Shown: positions 3,542 to 12,584 of the stretch, piece by piece
Layout: the number at the start of each line of letters is the position of its first letter
Numbering within the stretch: position 1 is the stretch's first letter
Assembly: GCF_004376175.1 (NCBI RefSeq)
Contig: NZ_SNUY01000012.1
Span: 1 to 32,000, forward strand
Length of the DNA: 32,000 nt
Direction: 5' to 3'
From: Halalkalibacterium halodurans
Lineage (GTDB): Bacteria > Bacillota > Bacilli > Bacillales > Bacillaceae_D
The notes under the pieces: generated by a model
Database searches by the model: none
Told to the model about the DNA's origin: nothing
What the model saw: the letters and a program-made list of their open reading frames with translations, nothing else
Made by a program: the position numbers and the translations under genes

Positions 3542-4910
<1,369 letters not shown>

Positions 4911-7860: not shown

Positions 7861-9456
7861 AAAAAGCAGTGGTTCCATCGATTTTGATAAATCCTAATTT
7901 TCTTTCATTTCATTGCTTTTTAAGTTAAATACGTTCGTTTTTGAGTACACCAAATAAAACCTGCTCAGACATTTTTTTACAGGTCTTATTATCTATTCAG
8001 TTTCCTAGACTTATGTCGAAAATGAAAGATACAGACGCTTAAAAGTGGAAAACCAAGGACTATAGTTCCCGAATTTTAAGTAAACTTTCCGAGAGTGCTT
8101 AACAACTTTTGATGCCAGTGTAATTAAGTTCTGGATTACTGTTTTTACACGGCGACGAAAAACCTTTCTTTTAAGTGGTGCATCTCCTGATTTTAGGCTT
8201 TCTTGGCCAATAACCCGAAGGAGATTGTAGGTTAAACACCCAAGATGTAAGATCAATTCATTGGTGGCAAATTTACCCGAAGGAAAACGTTCTAGGTCTA
8301 AATCTGTTTTTAATTCACTGTGGAATTGTTCACAAGTGCCATGTTCGTGATATAGGCCAATTATTTCCTCTGTTTCATTAGGTAGGCTAGTCCAATAGCT
8401 CTCAAACTCAACATCTGGGACTAAGAGGATTTGTCCGTTTTTATCGATTGTCCTTTCCGTTACCTTATAAACTTGGCGAATGGCTTTTTTCATTCCCTTT
8501 GGAGTTGTTTCTAAAGCACCATAGAATACACGTTTTCCTTCTCGCTCCTGAACGCATTTGCCGAATTGTTCGGCTACCATGAGCCAGTTTTCGGGCTTTT
8601 CACGGCGAGGGTTTCGTTTAATTATAAAATCGGCCTTTTCATTGACACAAACTTTTAGATTTTCGACACTATCGTTTCCTGCGTCCATACGGACTAGTAA
8701 CGATAGGTCCGTAATCATCCGAGAATAGTTAATACTGTTCTCAAGAAATTTCTCAGTATCCTTTTGAACGTGTGTGCTTCCTTCCCGAAGTTCCATATTT
8801 ACAACGTAGCCTTCTAGACCTAAATAGGAAAAGTTAGGGGAATATCCATCACATCCTTTGTATGTGCGACTAACCCCTTCTTTCTTGGTATTTGAGTTAT
8901 CAAATGGCGATACATCAATATCTAAAGGCACGTATGTTTTTTTATCACTAGTTACTGTTGGAGTGACAGGAGAATCAAATTGCCGTATTAGTTTAGCCGA
9001 TTCTTCTAGAACAATGGATTTCCATCCAGTCACCTTGGCAATTTGATCGAGACGTTGCCGTAGTGTGGGACTTGATGGAACCAATTTAATATCCAATGCA
9101 CGATAAAAGAAGGGATCGTCTCGAAATTGTTCGATATGGTCGAAATCATTCTTACCTTGACACAATAGACCCACATAAGAAGTGGTAACATCACCATTAA
9201 GAATCTTCGGAGATGACTTAATTTCTGGAACCTTCAAGGATGAAAAACGTTTGTGAAACTTTGTCTTTGATAAAAGCAAACCTATTAAACCAAGACCTGA
9301 ATGGGTCGTCAATGTATCATCGGAATTTTCTAATATAAACTTAACCAATTTCTACACCTGCCTGGTGAAATAAAATTATCAACATAAATCAGCTGATAAC
9401 ATTATTATAACAGGCTTTGGAGGCAATGTTGGAAATGATTTCATCACGGATTCAGG
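7847..9456 (-). mobile_element. IS1380-family insertion sequence, complete copy
   Basis: Perfect 14-bp terminal IRs begin with CC (17 of 18 if extended). It has a 5-bp direct target duplication and a single 445-aa transposase ORF. Removing the element restores the host reading frame. Confidence 0.85.
8011..9348 (-). CDS. IS1380-family DDE transposase
   Basis: The 445-aa product shares the layout of ISEcp1-type transposases: N-terminal LTTHSGLGLIGLLL, central YKGCDGYSPNF and LLVRMDAGNDS, and a C-terminal motif LYHEHGTCEQFHSELKTDL...FATNE...LTYNLLRVIG (compare ISEcp1 YYEKRGNAENYIKEAKYDM...WANEA...LSYNLFLLF). Confidence 0.85.
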   Translation of the reverse strand: MVKFILENSDDTLTTHSGLGLIGLLLSKTKFHKRFSSLKVPEIKSSPKILNGDVTTSYVGLLCQGKNDFDHIEQFRDDPFFYRALDIKLVPSSPTLRQRLDQIAKVTGWKSIVLEESAKLIRQFDSPVTPTVTSDKKTYVPLDIDVSPFDNSNTKKEGVSRTYKGCDGYSPNFSYLGLEGYVVNMELREGSTHVQKDTEKFLENSINYSRMITDLSLLVRMDAGNDSVENLKVCVNEKADFIIKRNPRREKPENWLMVAEQFGKCVQEREGKRVFYGALETTPKGMKKAIRQVYKVTERTIDKNGQILLVPDVEFESYWTSLPNETEEIIGLYHEHGTCEQFHSELKTDLDLERFPSGKFATNELILHLGCLTYNLLRVIGQESLKSGDAPLKRKVFRRRVKTVIQNLITLASKVVKHSRKVYLKFGNYSPWFSTFKRLYLSFST

Positions 9457-9461: not shown

Positions 9462-10218
9462 TATTAACAGAGCTTGGCTCCTGTTTCAGCGAGATTTGGA
9501 ACACCGGTATGAAGATTTACCACCAGAATTTGTTTATGAAATTAACCTACAAGTGACCGATACGTTAAACAAACTGCGGCAAGACTTAGCAGACCGTGAT
9601 TGGATCGGTGATATCACATCGCTCGTTACAAGTGTCCCAGGCTATCTAGTCACCATTATCGTCTATTTAATCGCGTTATTTTTGTTTATGTTGGAACTGC
9701 CACGACTAAAAGAAAAAGTCTATTCCTACCTTTCTGAAAAAACACAGGATAAAGTGTCGTTTATGTCCTCACGTCTATCCTATGTGGTTTCAGGGTTTAT
9801 CAAGGCGCAGTTTCTCGTGAGTATTATCATTTTTGTCGTTTCGTTAGTCGGCCTGCTTCTTATCGTTCCTGAATATGCACTACTCATGGCATTCGTCATC
9901 TGGATCATCGATTTTATTCCGATTATCGGTTCGATTGCGATTTTAGGTCCGTGGGCCTTGTTTCAGCTAATCGCCGGAAATGTCGCAGTCGGAACACAAC
10001 TTCTTATCTTAGCAGCGATTCTTTTAATCATCCGCCGTACAGTCGAGCCTAAAGTGATGGGGCAGCATATTGGTTTGTCCCCCCTTGCGACGCTTATTGC
10101 CATGTACATCGGTCTCATGCTGTTTGGCGTTGTCGGTTTTATTGTCGGTCCATTAATTGTCATTGCCTTTCAATCAGCCAAAGAAGCTGGCATCATTAAG
10201 TTGAATTTTAAATTATAA
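9457..10218 (+). pseudogene. AI-2E family transporter / YtvI-like protein, 3' part
   Basis: It is in frame with 7545-7846 once the IS and one TSD copy are removed (..QYIND-INRAWLLFQRDLEHRYEDLPPEF..). The C-terminal family signature is VEPKVMGQHIGLSPLATLIAMYIGLMLFGVVGFIVGP. The restored product would be about 352 aa. Confidence 0.8.
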
Positions 10219-10249
10219 GGAGCATTCCTGTAATGAAGAAATTTGAGGA

Positions 10250-10279
10250 TTGAACAAAAAAGAGCCCTCTTGGTATGAT
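10250..10279 (+). promoter_or_regulatory. putative sigma-A promoter with extended -10 for the IS110 recombinase
   Basis: TTGAAC (10250-10255), an 18-nt spacer ending in TGg, then TATGAT (10274-10279). It lies about 65 nt upstream of the ATG. Confidence 0.45.
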
Positions 10280-10343
10280 ACGAGGTGTCCAAAGCTTCGA
10301 AGCAAAAATGGACCCTTAAATTAGTAACCAAGGAGGACTCGTA

Positions 10344-11627
10344 ATGAATTATACTCAAAATCACAAAATCTCGCAAATCACACCATCAACACTCATTATT
10401 GGCATTGATATTGCCAAAGACAAACATGTCGCACGTGCTCAAGATGATCGTGGATTAGACTTTGGAAAGCGTTTGATCTTTGAAAATCGAATCTTTGGCT
10501 TTGAAGCCCTCGTTGAGTGGGTAAAGCAACACCAAGAAAAACACAAGAAGAATCACGTCATTTTTGGCGTAGAACCAACAGGACATTATTGGAAGAGTCT
10601 TGCTTACTATCTAACGGCAAAAGGTTACGACTTTGTCGTCGTGAACCCAATGCACGTTAAGAAAAGTAAAGAACTTGATGACAATTCTCCAACGAAAAAC
10701 GATACGAAAGACGCAAAAGTGATCGCCCAGTTAATCAAAGATGGGCGATACTCTGTACCAAACCTCTTAGATGGCATATATGCGGAACTAAGAGAATGCG
10801 TAAAAATTCGAGATCAGCTTACTGAACAATTAATGATCACAGAAGGTCGCATTCAAAATGTGATTCAACGCTACTTTCCAGAGTTTTTCGATGTGTTTGG
10901 AGATTGGGAAGGCAAAGCCGCTCTCTGTACCCTAAAGCTGTTTCCGTTCCCCTCTGATATTCATAAAAAGACACCAGAGAGGGTTCTTCAAGAATGGAAA
11001 CCGTATGTCCAACGAGGAGTTGGCATTAAGCGCGCAACGAAGCTTGTAGAAACAGCCAAAAAGAGCATTGGAATTGAAGTAGGCTTGAAATTTGCCAAGT
11101 GTGAACTGAAGAATCTTATTGAGCAGTATGAGCTTTTTAAGCGGCAATTAGAAGAGTTGGATCAGGAATTAGAAGCCATCGTTGAAACATTACCTGGTGC
11201 CCAACAAATGATGAAAATTCCAGGCTTAGGGGCGGTGACTGTTGGATTATTCTTTGCGGAAGTTGGGGACATTTCAAAGTACTCTCATCCTCAACAATTA
11301 GTGAACTTAGCAGGGCTATCATTACGTGAGCACAGTTCAGGTAAATTTAAAGGGCAAACAAGGATTACAAAGCGAGGAAGGAAACGATTACGCCGAGCCT
11401 TATATTTAGCGATTCGTCCCCTTGTCGCCCATAATTCAACATTTAAAGCCCTGCATCACTATTACACCAAACGCCCTGAACGCCCTTTGAAAAAGCAACA
11501 ATCTTTGATTGCCTTGTGTTGTAAGTTACTACGTGTGTTGTTTGTCATTGGTCAAAAACAGTGTGAATTTGATGGTTCAAGATTAATAAAAGATATTCCT
11601 CAAATGGATGGATTACAGGCAGTGTAA
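10344..11627 (+). CDS. IS110-family DEDD (RuvC-like) transposase/recombinase with C-terminal Transposase_20 domain
   Basis: ATG 10344 has an AAGGAGG SD. Motifs present: IGIDIAKDKH, FGVEPTGHYW, KNDTKDAKVIAQL, and C-terminal IPGLGAVTVGLFFAEVGDISKY...LAGLSLREHSSGKFKGQTRITKRGRKRLRRALYLA. Confidence 0.9.
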   Translation: MNYTQNHKISQITPSTLIIGIDIAKDKHVARAQDDRGLDFGKRLIFENRIFGFEALVEWVKQHQEKHKKNHVIFGVEPTGHYWKSLAYYLTAKGYDFVVVNPMHVKKSKELDDNSPTKNDTKDAKVIAQLIKDGRYSVPNLLDGIYAELRECVKIRDQLTEQLMITEGRIQNVIQRYFPEFFDVFGDWEGKAALCTLKLFPFPSDIHKKTPERVLQEWKPYVQRGVGIKRATKLVETAKKSIGIEVGLKFAKCELKNLIEQYELFKRQLEELDQELEAIVETLPGAQQMMKIPGLGAVTVGLFFAEVGDISKYSHPQQLVNLAGLSLREHSSGKFKGQTRITKRGRKRLRRALYLAIRPLVAHNSTFKALHHYYTKRPERPLKKQQSLIALCCKLLRVLFVIGQKQCEFDGSRLIKDIPQMDGLQAV

Positions 11628-12021
11628 CCTTAGAAAGCAGATCACCCAAAGTGGCTTGACACGGAGCCTCTGCGGGCATGGCTCCTTGGCGAAGCGGCGA
11701 GTCATCCAATGATTCGCCCATGGCTAAGGAAGCCTACCATGCCCGCCACTCCATGTAAAGCCGTGCATCATCTGTATACTTACAAATAACAAACACCAAT
11801 AGTGCAGAGTCGGAGTTTATTTTCACCATACGGGCTTATGACCCAGCAAAGGAGCTTATCCGACCTCCACCTCATGGATACGCAGGACGAAGGAAGGTAT
11901 GGATACCAATCCGGAGAGACATGGGAGGGTTAGCGACCGTGAGTAGCGTGGAGATTTATAGGCACGGTCATACTACTCAATTACCAAACTATACCAGTTT
12001 GGACGTTAGGATGGATTATCC
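11628..12021 (+). ncRNA. candidate element-encoded structured RNA (possible bridge/seek-type guide RNA) in the IS110 3' tail
   Basis: No ORF of 60 aa or more on either strand. It contains several nested helices with + strand-specific G-U pairs, an 8-nt direct repeat ATGGATAC (11874-11881, 11899-11906), and hairpins 11935-11941/11963-11969 and 11984-11990/11996-12002. Function is inferred and the ends are unknown. Confidence 0.35.
11653..11762 (+). other. 110-nt rod-like imperfect hairpin directly 3' of the IS110 recombinase stop
   Basis: Helices: 11653-11666/11749-11762 (12 of 14 paired); 11672-11681/11737-11746 (10 Watson-Crick); 11684-11690/11723-11729 (7 bp, G11688-T11725 wobble); 11696-11705/11709-11718 (10 bp, G11701-T11713 wobble, CCA loop). 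On the opposite strand the wobbles become C-A mismatches. Confidence 0.6.
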
Positions 12022-12150
12022 CCTGTAAGAAATTTTAATTCGTTCTACTTCTATCCAGTAGTACTGGTGAGATTACTATTTGGTGTTAGTGAAATTTGGA
12101 GAATACACGAGTATTAGCGAGAAAATTAAACTTTATTGAGGGAGGAAGAA

Positions 12151-12584
12151 TTGGGGATGATTCGCCCTGCCACATTAGAGGATACAGAAAGCCTCATACC
12201 CTTAATGAAAGACTTAGGCTATCCGACAAAAAGAGAGCATCTGTATAAGCGACTAGAGAAGCTCCTTTCCCATCGTGATTATCATTTATGGCTCTATGTG
12301 AGAAAAGATTCATCTCCTATCGGGTTTTTCGGCTTCATCCATCAGCTCGCCTTCGAAAAAATGAATCATACGTTCGAATCGCAGCCTTGGCGGTCAATGC
12401 CAGTGAGCGAGGAAAAGGGACTGGTTCTAAACTTCTTCAAGCGGTAGAAGATAGGGCGATCAAGCATGACATTAGCACCATCGTCCTGAATAGCGGAAAT
12501 CGCCAGGAACGTCAAATAGCCAATCGGTTTTATGAAGCTGCGGGCTTCGTCCCGAAAGCAACGGGCTTTTATAAGCAGCTTTAA
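12151..12584 (+). pseudogene. GNAT-family N-acetyltransferase with a -1 frameshift in an A6 tract
   Basis: Two overlapping ORFs (12136-12447 and 12288-12584) together make one GNAT. The N-part is MIRPATLEDTESLIPLMKDLGY...PIGFFGFIHQLAFEK. The C-part is NESYVRIAALAVNASERGKGTGSKLLQAVE...RFYEAAGF. The frames switch at AAAAAA 12356-12361, and one extra A would give ..AFEKNESYVRI... The start is ATG 12157 or TTG 12151, after GAGGGAGG. Confidence 0.75.

What the first reader, a model, noticed from the sequence alone, without database searches (positions are those of the whole stretch)
11628..12021. Long, structured, ORF-free 3' tail of the IS110-family element: candidate element-encoded guide RNA (bridge/seek type)
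Seen in the sequence: the recombinase gene (10344-11627) has at most ~110 nt of element DNA upstream. It is followed by roughly 400-500 nt with no ORF of 60 aa or more on either strand before the next host gene (12151). By eye the tail is more GC-rich than its surroundings. It starts with a 110-nt rod of four nested helices: 11653-11666/11749-11762, 11672-11681/11737-11746, 11684-11690/11723-11729 and 11696-11705/11709-11718. The two non-Watson-Crick pairs inside otherwise perfect helices are G-U on the + strand and would be C-A on the other strand. That argues for selection at the RNA level, in the same sense as the recombinase. If the 7-bp third helix opens, the rod has an internal loop of 14 and 18 nt (11682-11695 and 11719-11736). 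Further 3' there is an exact 8-nt direct repeat ATGGATAC (11874-11881, 11899-11906), a hairpin with a 21-nt loop (11935-11969) and another hairpin (11984-12002). Established knowledge: IS110-family recombinases (IS621 bridge RNA, IS1111-type seekRNA) are programmed by a non-coding RNA encoded in the element's long non-coding end. Internal loops of that RNA pair with target and donor DNA, and in IS1111-type elements the RNA lies 3' of the recombinase gene. Inference: this tail is the guide RNA of this element. Limit: I could not convincingly assign target-binding and donor-binding loops by eye. I found only weak partial matches to the flanks, for example TAAGGAAGC at 11725-11733 versus TAAGGAGC at 10217-10224.
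Basis: partly seen in the sequence, partly recalled or inferred. Interest (0 to 1): 0.75.

Follow-up and report, generated by a model that had tools for sequence, protein, structure and literature searches.

The report
Bridge-type guide RNA in IS650-like tail

Summary
The element spans about 10223-12144, so the whole 518-nt tail is element DNA. Its recombinase is a 427-aa IS110-family DEDD enzyme, 93% identical to the IS650 transposase.

The 110-nt rod (11653-11762) is real. It is absent from about 50 relatives at 55-84% protein identity, so it is not the conserved guide.

The conserved RNA is 11795-11968, with a 3' hairpin reaching about 12015. Eight helices are 99.3% paired across 36 sequences, and seven pairs show compensatory change. 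They enclose two internal loops.

- Loop 1, 3' side (AAAGGAG, 11848-11854), repeats the left flank plus an AG core of each insertion. Over 45 insertions there were 245 matches, against 162±9 after permutation.
- Loop 2 carries GGGAG (right end plus core) and AGGAAGG (AGGAAUG in most relatives, the complement of the left end CATTCCT). Evidence here is weaker.

The main clade lands in Shine-Dalgarno sites (TAAGG-AG-G) and rebuilds one at its right end. A 56%-identity clade has a changed guide and a matching changed target.

Durrant et al. 2024 already list IS650 with a bridge RNA in its right end, so this is a new member of a known kind.

The rod belongs to a widespread hairpin family found beside transposase genes of unrelated IS families. 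Its function is unexplained.

The parts
10216..10222 (+). Left half of the target (TAAGG) plus the first copy of the AG core (10221-10222). It contains the stop codon of the upstream AI-2E transporter ORF.
   Evidence: Junction comparison with L001 and with multi-copy genomes. Flank positions -5 to -1 match the RNA guide in 33, 40, 43, 45 and 45 of 45 insertions.
10223..10343 (+). Left end of the element (121 nt). CATTCCT (10223-10229) is the right-donor sequence and is invariant in all clades. A promoter-like site TTGAAC-18-TATGAT with an upstream TG lies at 10250-10279.
10344..11627 (+). IS110-family DEDD recombinase gene (427 aa).
   Evidence: Pfam PF01548 (5.5e-34) and PF02371 (1.7e-22). 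93% identical to the IS650 transposase. Homologous to the IS621 transposase in PDB entry 8wt6 (E = 1e-18), and its sequence keeps the motifs that surround the IS621 catalytic residues (GIDxAK, TG.Y, DT.DA, SSG); residue-by-residue correspondence is read by eye.
11653..11762 (+). The rod: a 110-nt GC-rich hairpin inserted into the spacer (11628-11794) between the stop codon and the guide RNA. It is a separate module and not part of the conserved guide.
   Evidence: Present only in the IS650 lineage (window, L001, L002, L003, L008, L060, L011). Relatives have a 26-61 nt AT-rich spacer instead. The same arms occur in 2 plasmids and more than 120 metagenome contigs, next to IS3, IS256 and other IS110 transposase genes.
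11795..11968 (+). Conserved core of the bridge/seek-type guide RNA. Helices: H0 11795-97/11966-68 and 11802-05/11962-65; H1 11809-14/11859-64; H2 11832-35/11840-44; H3 11865-70/11948-53; H4 11872-77/11937-42; H5 11881-83/11933-35; apical hairpin 11901-03/11910-12.
   Evidence: RNAalifold on 36 sequences. Pair counts: 99.3% paired, 7 pairs and 38 cells with changes on both sides, 0 of 500 shuffles reach this. The 56% clade independently folds into H0, H1, H2, H4 and H5 with different sequences. Coordinates.
11848..11854 (+). Left-target guide (AAAGG + AG) on the 3' side of loop 1 (11845-11858). It has the same sense as the left flank plus core, so it would pair with the bottom strand.
   Evidence: Covaries with the left flank. 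245 matches against 162±8.8 after permutation (0 of 20000); in the main clade alone 177 against 140.7±3.9. Examples: AUCGUAG/ATCGTAG, UAGAAAG/TAGAAAG, CAGCGGAG/CAGCGGAG, CGGGCAG/CGGGCAG.
11820..11827 (+). Candidate right-target guide (UUUUCACC) on the 5' side of loop 1 (11815-11831), complementary to the top strand just right of the core.
   Evidence: In the 56% clade the equivalent CAAC(U/A)A(A/U) pairs with flank positions +2 to +9 (69 of 108 Watson-Crick cells, against 30 of 108 one register away). In the main clade mainly CC pairs with GG. Single cases: L033 UUUUAACC/GGTTAAAA and L065 UUAUUCC/GGAATGA. Within-clade permutation is not significant.
11891..11897 (+). Candidate right-donor guide on the 5' side of loop 2 (11884-11900). 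It reads AGGAAGG here and AGGAAUG in most relatives, the reverse complement of the left-end CATTCCT.
   Evidence: A 7-nt antisense match in L071, L032, L056 and L059, and 6 nt in the 56% clade. Both partners are nearly invariant, so no covariation is available. The window variant has G opposite A at one position.
11923..11927 (+). Candidate left-donor guide (GGG + AG) on the 3' side of loop 2 (11913-11932), same sense as the right-end terminus.
   Evidence: L013 and L032 carry AGGAG in the RNA and GAAGGAG at the right end, while all others have GGGAG in both places. Only 5 nt long.
11984..12015 (+). 3' hairpin CCAAAC/GUUUGG followed by the conserved UAGGAUGG. Probably the 3' extension of the RNA.
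   Evidence: Compensatory changes CG:24 and UA:9. Invariant columns TAGGATG.
12016..12144 (+). Distal right end. The stretch 12016-12084 is variable and 12085-12144 is conserved. It ends in TTGAGGG + AG, the second copy of the core (12143-12144).
12145..12159 (+). Right half of the target. G at +1, then the spacer and start codon (TTG 12151 or ATG 12157) of the downstream GNAT acetyltransferase gene. The element's GGGAG plus this G rebuilds a Shine-Dalgarno sequence.
   Evidence: 20 of 34 non-redundant main-clade insertions have an ORF of 50 aa or more starting 3-13 nt after the element, against 7.5% at random positions.

Best explanation
The window carries an intact copy of an IS650-like IS110-family insertion sequence at about 10223-12144.

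Shown:
- Its 3' non-coding end encodes a plus-strand RNA of roughly 175-220 nt (11795-11968, probably extending to about 12015).
- The RNA folds into a closing helix (H0) that holds two stem-loop arms. Each arm has a large internal loop capped by a small hairpin.
- Loop 1 is the target-binding loop. [quoted passage not shown]

Supported only at the level of clades:
- The 5' strand of loop 1 would pair with the top strand to the right of the core.

Inferred, by analogy with IS621 and from sequence matches:
- Loop 2 is the donor-binding loop.
- Its 5' strand (AGGAAGG here, AGGAAUG in most relatives) complements the left-end sequence CATTCCT.
- Its 3' strand (GGGAG) repeats the right-end terminus plus core.
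- The recombinase-RNA complex would bring the joined ends of an excised circle together with a target and exchange strands at the AG core. That leaves AG at both junctions and no other duplication.

Within each loop the order of strands is the reverse of IS621: the top-strand binder is 5' and the bottom-strand binder is 3'. This is the order reported for IS1111-type seekRNAs.

Because the left-target guide reads like a Shine-Dalgarno sequence, the main clade homes to ribosome-binding sites (TAAGG-AG-G) in the orientation of the downstream gene. Its right end (GAGGGAG) rebuilds the site.

The RNA is probably cut out of read-through transcripts from the promoter in the left end. No promoter-like site was found on the plus strand between 11115 and 12300 (the last lies inside the recombinase gene at 11085-11114), and no terminator-like site anywhere in 10100-12300.

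The 110-nt rod is not part of this machine.
For: Boundaries. An independent insertion (L001) and a collapsed repeat contig (L002) share window 10215/10217-12145. Junctions in multi-copy genomes place AG at both ends.

Conservation. Relatives at 68-84% protein identity align only from about 11785 onward, at 74-85% nucleotide identity. The stretch 11862-11955 is still recognisable at 56% protein identity.

Structure. 41 pairs are 99.3% paired, with 7 pairs and 38 cells showing changes on both sides. None of 500 shuffles reaches this, and slid controls give 27-39% paired. The 56% clade keeps H0, H1, H4, H5 and the apical hairpin with different bases: GUGC/GCAC becomes GCAC/GUGC, GUCGGA/UCCGAC becomes GUCAGU/ACUGAC, CGC/GCG becomes GGU/ACC, and GGAU/AUCC becomes AGAG/CUCU.

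Strand. There are 42 G.U cells against 7 A.C cells in the helices.

Guide and target. The clade with a changed guide has a correspondingly changed target, GGGC-AG.

Shine-Dalgarno homing. 20 of 34 against 7.5% at random, and 0 of 12 in the retargeted clade.

Non-coding. One- and two-nt indels break the 43-aa ORF.

Protein. Pfam domains, and homology to IS621 with its catalytic motifs kept.

Literature. IS650 and IS653 are listed with 'Detected Bridge RNA End = RE, group IS110' (PMC11208160, Supplementary Table 5). The reversed order in IS1111 seekRNAs, and the existence of IS110-type elements with a downstream non-coding region, are in PMC11187229.
Against: - No expression data exist, so transcription, RNA ends and processing are inferred.
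- Rfam has no matching family.
- The donor-loop assignment rests on short matches of 5 and 7 nt with almost no variation. Only one co-change was seen (L013, L032), and these two may share ancestry.
- In the window lineage the right-donor guide has a G opposite A.
- The right-target guide shows no significant covariation within clades: 156 against 148±4.3 (216 of 5000 permutations as high) and 69 against 64.3±3.2 (528 of 5000).
- Neither top-strand guide appears to cover the core, unlike in IS621.
- Helices H3 and H5 never vary within the main clade, and H3 is replaced by another pairing in the 56% clade fold.
- The sequences are related, so permutation counts overstate the number of independent events.
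- Position -5 of the guide (A) does not match the T found at all three flanks of the 99-100% copies.
Confidence: 0.85

Rival explanations
1. The 110-nt rod (11653-11762) is the guide RNA, or its target- and donor-binding part. Its internal loop of 14 and 18 nt would carry the guides.
For: The rod is very stable (-59.5 kcal/mol for the hairpin alone). It lies in the tail and is GC-rich. It contains TAAGGAAGC, which resembles the left junction.
Against: The rod is absent from about 50 related elements that have the same ends and the same type of target. It is replaced by unrelated hairpins in L034, L035 and L056. Its apical half differs completely in L011 although the target is the same. The same module sits next to IS3 and IS256 transposase genes and in plasmid DNA with no IS110 gene nearby. 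The covarying guide lies elsewhere.
Confidence: 0.03
2. The conserved block 11795-12015 acts as DNA, for example as recombinase binding sites or subterminal repeats used in synapsis, and not as an RNA.
For: It lies in the non-coding end of a mobile element, where cis-acting DNA sites are expected. There are no expression data. An 8-nt direct repeat GAAATTTG occurs in both ends.
Against: Compensatory changes preserve long-range helices up to 170 nt apart. The helices hold 42 G.U cells against 7 A.C cells, an asymmetry that has meaning only for a plus-strand transcript. The block lies 130-350 nt from the right terminus. An internal copy of the left flank that changes together with the target has no role in a protein-DNA model.
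Confidence: 0.05
3. The tail is an ordinary 3' untranslated region (terminator or mRNA stabiliser), and the matches to the flanks arise because the flanking bases really belong to the element.
For: The RNA follows the gene directly. The AGGAG-like sequences are common motifs.
Against: Copies within one genome differ immediately upstream of AGGAG and downstream of GGGAG, so these bases are flank. No terminator-like site was found. Rare guide variants (CGUAG, GAAAG, GCGAAG, GGGCAG) are mirrored in single flanks.
Confidence: 0.05

Closest known systems
IS650 / IS653 of Halalkalibacterium halodurans (ISfinder, IS110 family)
   Same: The recombinase is 93% identical to the IS650 transposase and has the same length of 427 aa. 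The shared element block of 1929-1931 nt gives a short left end and a long right end. Durrant et al. list both elements with the bridge RNA detected in the right end.
   Different: The hosts are different (Alkalihalobacillus alcalophilus, Halalkalibacter oceani and others). I found no description of the guides, the AG core or the Shine-Dalgarno target in the papers searched.
IS621 bridge RNA (Durrant et al. 2024; Hiraizumi et al. 2024)
   Same: A homologous DEDD and Tnp-domain recombinase. One RNA with two internal loops. Each loop has one strand that reads like the left half plus core, and one strand complementary to the right half. There is a 2-nt core.
   Different: - The RNA lies in the right end, not the left end.
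- The strand order in each loop is reversed.
- The core is AG, not CT.
- The top-strand guides seem not to cover the core.
- The donor guides are shorter (5 and 7 nt).
- The protein is 427 aa, against 326-328 aa.
- There is no detectable sequence similarity between the RNAs, and no Rfam hit.
seekRNA of IS1111-type elements (ISEc11, ISPa11, ISKpn4; Siddiquee et al. 2024)
   Same: The RNA is encoded downstream of the recombinase gene. The top-strand match lies 5' of the bottom-strand match. The RNA is probably processed from a longer transcript.
   Different: No subterminal inverted repeats. The recombinase has IS110-group size and sequence. The targets are ribosome-binding sites rather than REP, attC or transposon ends.
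ISPpu9 with its Ssr9 small-RNA module (Pseudomonas putida; PMC12288879, abstract seen)
   Same: An IS110-family element that carries an extra structured-RNA module downstream of the recombinase gene, with further copies of the module elsewhere. This is the nearest analogy for the rod.
   Different: The sequence and host are unrelated. The rod sits between the gene and the guide RNA. Only the abstract of that paper was read.

Membership tests
IS110 family (DEDD recombinase elements) | N-terminal RuvC-like DEDD domain and C-terminal Tnp domain with a catalytic serine | tested here: met
   PF01548 at 5.5e-34 and PF02371 at 1.7e-22. In the alignment to IS621 (8wt6, E = 1e-18) the query reads IGIDIAKD, VEPTGHY, KNDTKDA and EHSSGK where IS621 has the motifs around its catalytic D11, E60, D102/D105 and S241. 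The residue correspondence is read by eye from that alignment.
IS110 family (DEDD recombinase elements) | No long terminal inverted repeats, and no target duplication beyond the short core | tested here: met
   No inverted match of 7 nt or more between the first and last 90 nt. Only AG is common to both junctions in the 56% clade.
Bridge RNA (IS621 type) | A structured non-coding RNA with two internal loops, supported by covariation | tested here: met
Bridge RNA (IS621 type) | Loop nucleotides covary with the target flanks | tested here: met
   The left-target guide covaries with the left flank, 0 of 20000 permutations. The right-target guide is supported only by differences between clades.
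Bridge RNA (IS621 type) | Second loop complementary to the donor (the joined element ends) | tested here: inconclusive
   AGGAAUG matches CATTCCT and GGGAG matches the right end plus core, with one co-change (L013, L032). The partners hardly vary.
Bridge RNA (IS621 type) | [quoted passage not shown] | tested here: not met
   The RNA is in the right end, the strand order is reversed, and the core is seen only in the two sense guides. It works like a bridge RNA but has a different layout.
Bridge RNA (IS621 type) | The RNA is expressed, binds the recombinase and is required for recombination | not testable with these tools
   Needs RNA-seq, co-purification and recombination assays.
IS1111 group / seekRNA | Long non-coding region downstream of the gene, with the top-strand match 5' of the bottom-strand match | tested here: met
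   A 517-nt right end (11628-12144) against a 121-nt left end. The rule is from PMC11187229.
IS1111 group / seekRNA | Subterminal inverted repeats of 7-17 bp, and a transposase of about 330-350 aa related to IS1111 over its full length | tested here: not met
   No inverted repeat of 7 nt or more. The protein is 427 aa. Durrant et al. place IS650 in the IS110 group.
IS650 (same insertion sequence) | Near-identity to the ISfinder IS650 entry in protein and DNA | tested here: inconclusive
   Protein identity is 93%. IS650 DNA was not at hand, so this is either a sister element or a divergent isoform.

The most novel reading that the evidence does not exclude
The rod may be a member of an undescribed, widely spread family of about 105-nt structured elements.

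What was seen:
- The arms are GCTTGACAYGGAGCCTC...CTCCATRTAAAGC, with a conserved G.A mismatch, an asymmetric internal loop and a variable tip.
- It lies within about 50 nt of the stop codons of transposase genes from at least three unrelated IS families (IS3, IS256, IS110).
- It has an intrinsic strand polarity.
- It has no Rfam match.

It could be a mobile hairpin cassette or an RNA processing or stability signal that insertion sequences exchange. In IS650 it might mark the 5' end of the guide RNA.

Separately, this family's guide RNA homes the element to ribosome-binding sites and rebuilds them, a target choice I did not find described.
Probability: 0.3. Interest if true: 0.6.

Novelty: new member of a known kind. 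Interest (0 to 1): 0.35.

Why it matters
For the finding as stated, little is new. RNA-guided IS110 recombination is established, and IS650 is already tabulated as carrying its bridge RNA in the right end.

What this analysis adds:
- A worked anatomy for that clade: helices, two loops, an AG core and a 7-nt left-target guide.
- Natural retargeting across about 45 insertions.
- The observation that the main clade is guided to Shine-Dalgarno sites in the orientation of the downstream gene, and restores the site.

This gives a compact, naturally diverse set of right-end bridge RNAs from Bacillaceae with reversed loop polarity. Such a set could be useful for comparing mechanisms and for engineering.

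It also bears on genome annotation, because these elements sit exactly at gene starts and may change the expression of the downstream gene.

The rod family is the more open question. It is a conserved structured module that recurs beside unrelated transposase genes.

Tried and rejected
- Rfam at gathering and at permissive thresholds gave nothing but noise.
- I looked for other copies inside the window and found none.
- The short contigs ending at 11728-11810 could have marked the true element end. I rejected this because L001 and L002 continue to 12145.
- GGAG as a 4-nt core was rejected. The 56% clade shares only AG between its junctions.
- CCUCCACCUC (11864-11873) looked like a right-target guide. 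I rejected it because it forms helices H3 and H4.
- An alternative register for the left-donor guide (GAGGG) was rejected by the L013 and L032 co-change.
- A search for subterminal inverted repeats found none.
- The scan showed no promoter-like site on the plus strand between 11115 and 12300, and no terminator-like site anywhere in 10100-12300.
- The 43-aa ORF 11802-11933 as a small protein was rejected because of frame-breaking indels.
- Within-clade permutation for the right-target guide was not significant.
- The rod as a sigma-70 promoter (TTGACA, 15 nt, CATGAT) is weak in the consensus and poor in the window copy (CATGGC). I did not pursue it.
- The odd right junction of L008 (TTGAGG|TTGG) was not informative.
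- A literature search for IS110 together with Shine-Dalgarno targets, and one for IS650, found nothing relevant.
- I did not build a covariance model.
Full report
**What is in the window.** The ORF 10344-11627 encodes a 427-aa protein with the two Pfam domains of IS110-family recombinases (PF01548 at 5.5e-34, PF02371 at 1.7e-22). It aligns to the IS621 transposase of PDB entry 8wt6 (E = 1e-18). Its sequence keeps the motifs that surround the IS621 catalytic residues; I read that correspondence by eye from the alignment. It is 93% identical to the 'Transposase of IS650' of Halalkalibacterium halodurans. Upstream lies the 3' part of an AI-2E transporter gene and downstream a GNAT acetyltransferase gene. 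Rfam finds nothing in the window, even at permissive thresholds.

**Element boundaries.** The identical protein is encoded on six other public contigs. L001 is a different insertion site on a 66-kb contig and shares window 10215-12145 at 99.7% identity. L002 is a 1929-nt collapsed repeat contig that equals 10217-12145. Four shorter contigs stop at 11728-11810, inside or just after the rod. They are assembly breaks at a long palindrome, not element ends.

Multi-copy genomes (Bacillus sp. WMMC1349, B. methanolicus PB1, B. alkalicola) and 80 loci from a genome scan give the same junctions. On the left it is flank, then AGGAG, then CATTCCTGTAATGAAG. On the right it is TTTAT(T/A)GAGGGAG followed by flank. 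In a clade with only 56% protein identity the left junction reads ...GGGC-AG|CATTCC, while the right junction is still ...GAGGG-AG|. Only AG is common to both ends, so AG is the likely core. The element is 10223-12144 with one copy of the core.

**The rod.** The C.A would be a G.U pair on the other strand, so the strand argument from two G.U pairs is weak.

More importantly, a BLAST of the tail against the tails of homologues shows the rod only in the closest relatives (99-100% copies, L060 at 93%, L011 at 88%). About 50 relatives at 55-84% protein identity start to align only at window position about 11785. Their spacer between the stop codon and the conserved block is 26-61 nt and AT-rich. 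Three other lineages (L034, L035, L056) carry unrelated long hairpins at the same place. The rod is therefore a lineage-specific insert and cannot be the conserved guide.

**The conserved RNA.** I aligned 36 non-redundant main-clade sequences over window 11795-12022 (A1). RNAalifold gave these helices (coordinates):
- a closing helix H0 (11795-97/11966-68 and 11802-05/11962-65);
- an arm closed by H1 (11809-14/11859-64) and capped by hairpin H2 (11832-35/11840-44);
- a second arm made of H3 (11865-70/11948-53), H4 (11872-77/11937-42) and H5 (11881-83/11933-35), capped by a small hairpin (11901-03/11910-12);
- a 3' hairpin H9 (11984-89/11997-12002).

Across 41 pairs, 99.3% of cells are paired. 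Seven pairs and 38 cells show changes on both sides. None of 500 column shuffles reaches these values, and sliding the partners gives only 27-39% pairing.

The 56% clade, folded on its own, recovers H0, H1, H2, H4 and H5. Read by eye from A2, its helices use different bases: GUGC/GCAC becomes GCAC/GUGC, GUCGGA/UCCGAC becomes GUCAGU/ACUGAC, CGC/GCG becomes GGU/ACC, and the apical GGAU/AUCC becomes AGAG/CUCU.

The helices contain 42 G.U cells against 7 A.C cells, so the RNA is read from the plus strand. Indels of one or two nucleotides rule out the 43-aa ORF.

**Guides.**

[quoted passage not shown] Siddiquee et al. reported the reverse order for IS1111 seekRNAs (PMC11187229).

*Loop 1, 3' strand.* Here it reads AGCAAAGGAGCUUA (11845-11858). 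The seven bases 11848-11854 repeat the left flank plus AG. Across 45 non-redundant insertions, flank positions -5 to -1 equal the RNA in 33, 40, 43, 45 and 45 cases. Total matches over 9 nt are 245, against 162±8.8 when flanks are permuted (0 of 20000). Within the main clade alone the figures are 177 against 140.7±3.9. Rare guide variants are mirrored in their flanks:
- CCGAGGAG with GCGAGGAG and ACGAGGAG, in two of four B. methanolicus copies;
- AUCGUAG with ATCGTAG;
- UAGAAAG with TAGAAAG;
- CAGCGGAG with CAGCGGAG;
- AAGGGAG with AAGGGAG;
- CGGGCAG with CGGGCAG, in the 56% clade.

Copies within one genome differ at these flank positions, so these bases are target and not element.

*Loop 1, 5' strand.* In the 56% clade it is complementary to the right flank: CAAC(U/A)A(A/U) against (A/T)T(A/T)GTTG at +2 to +9, with 69 of 108 Watson-Crick cells against 30 of 108 one register away. 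In the main clade little more than CC pairs with GG, although L033 (UUUUAACC/GGTTAAAA) and L065 (UUAUUCC/GGAATGA) match well. Within-clade permutation is not significant.

*Loop 2, 5' strand.* It carries AGGAAUG (AGGAAGG in the window, 11891-97), the reverse complement of the invariant left end CATTCCT.

*Loop 2, 3' strand.* It carries GGGAG (11923-27), equal to the right terminus plus core. In L013 and L032 both the RNA and the right end have A at the same position.

The donor loop is thus plausible but weakly tested.

**Target biology.** The main-clade target is (T/A)AAGG-AG-G. In 20 of 34 non-redundant insertions an ORF of 50 aa or more starts 3-13 nt after the element. The figure is 7.5% at random positions and 0 of 12 in the retargeted clade. 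The right end GAGGGAG plus the flanking G restores a Shine-Dalgarno sequence at the original distance. In the window this lies 6-12 nt before the GNAT gene start. A promoter-like site lies in the left end (10250-10279). The scan shows no promoter-like site on the plus strand between 11115 and 12300, and no terminator-like site anywhere in 10100-12300. The RNA is therefore probably processed from read-through transcripts, and transcription may continue into the downstream gene. Both of these are inferences.

**Comparison with what is known.** Supplementary Table 5 of Durrant et al. lists IS650 and IS653 with 'Detected Bridge RNA End: RE' and group IS110. Siddiquee et al. note that some IS110-type elements have the non-coding region downstream, and they include IS650 in their protein set. 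The existence of a right-end guide RNA in this lineage is therefore already catalogued.

The element is not IS1111-type. It has no subterminal inverted repeat of 7 nt or more and its protein is 427 aa. It works like a bridge RNA but differs from the IS621 layout in four ways: the end that encodes it, the strand order within the loops, the core sequence, and apparently the coverage of the core by the top-strand guides. I found no description of the guide assignment or the Shine-Dalgarno target in the papers searched. That is absence from a limited library, not proof of novelty.

**The rod as a separate object.**

*Where it occurs.* Sequences about 76-78% identical to the rod occur on two Bacillales plasmids with no IS110 gene nearby, and they carry compensatory changes in the GCGGGCAUG/CAUGCCCGC stem. 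In 54 of 121 cases the partner arm lies 96-113 nt downstream.

*Shape of the family.* It has conserved arms, a conserved G.A mismatch, an asymmetric internal loop and a variable tip.

*Neighbouring genes.* Nearby ORFs are transposases of the IS3 (rve), IS256 (Transposase_mut) and other IS110 families. Those of IS3 and IS256 end from 3 nt inside the rod to 30 nt from it, in either orientation; the IS110-type ORF ends 235 nt away.

*Strand polarity.* The strand opposite to the TTGACA-first orientation folds more stably in 38 of 43 members (130 against 53 G.U pairs, Wilcoxon p = 1.6e-7). This holds whichever way the neighbouring gene points.

*Open points.* In the window the rod sits in the less favoured orientation relative to the recombinase gene. 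Its function was not resolved, nor whether it lies inside those other elements or marks their insertion sites.

**Verdict.** Confidence that 11795-11968 is the guide RNA of this element is about 0.85. Confidence is high for the left-target guide and moderate to low for the other three guides.

Noticed in passing
window 11653-11762; L087 2503-2608; L088 2508-2613; L089-L207: The rod belongs to a widespread family of about 105-nt hairpins. Shared features are the arms GCTTGACAYGGAGCCTC...CTCCATRTAAAGC, a conserved G.A mismatch, an asymmetric internal loop and a variable tip. Members lie within about 50 nt of the stop codons of IS3 and IS256 transposase genes, and one lies 235 nt from an IS110-type gene. 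The strand opposite to the TTGACA-first orientation is more stable in 38 of 43 members. There is no Rfam match.
   Followed up: partly
L034 (about 1386-1575), L035 (about 3784-4087), L056 (about 3745-3917): Three other lineages of the same IS family carry unrelated long GC-rich hairpins at the same spot, between the stop codon and the guide RNA. L034 and L056 share a GTCAAGG...CTTGAC tip. The spacer seems to be a recurrent landing or acquisition site for hairpin modules.
   Followed up: no
L068-L086 (56% clade), e.g. L080 and L074 junctions: A sister clade has the guide CGGGCAG and inserts into a different conserved site, (T/A)A(C/T)GGGC-AG-G(T/A)T(A/T)GTTGAA. The left flanks are similar across genera (..CTTTTTTCTTATTGAAGTAAC..). 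The site is not followed by a gene start, and I did not identify what it is.
   Followed up: partly
L009, L062 and L069 right junctions: The right-end terminus is tandemly duplicated in three independent elements. L009 and L062 have TATATAGAGGGAG twice, and L069 repeats about 25 nt. The origin is unexplained; it may come from aberrant recombination at the target-like right end.
   Followed up: no
L008 right junction (locus position about 4298): A 99.5% identical copy in Halalkalibacter oceani ends TTGAGG|TTGGCATC and lacks the final GAG. GGTTGG occurs in both of its flanks. This may be an adjacent deletion or an off-target event.
   Followed up: partly
window 10238-10245 and 12091-12098: The direct 8-nt repeat GAAATTTG sits near both element ends. 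The wider motif GAAATTT(K)GAG is conserved in both ends in all clades. It may be a recombinase binding site.
   Followed up: no
window 8011-9348 (-) and 9496-10218 (+): A second, unrelated transposase gene (DDE_Tnp_1_4, 445 aa) lies upstream. The AI-2E transporter ORF matches only positions 110-325 of the 327-position Pfam model, so the gene appears truncated at its 5' end, probably by that other element. Its stop codon TAA (10216-10218) lies in the target half-site of the IS650-like element.
   Followed up: no
window 12136-12584: The GNAT acetyltransferase gene downstream of the element is split into two overlapping ORFs in different frames (12136-12447 and 12288-12584). This is a frameshift or a sequencing error.
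   Followed up: no
window 11855-11857 and 11928; alignment A1 columns 65-68: Both sense guides run on into the sequence that follows the core after recombination. CAU or CUU follows the left-target guide and matches the left-end CAT. G follows GGGAG and matches flank position +1. This may be a handshake-like feature on the bottom-strand guides.
   Followed up: no
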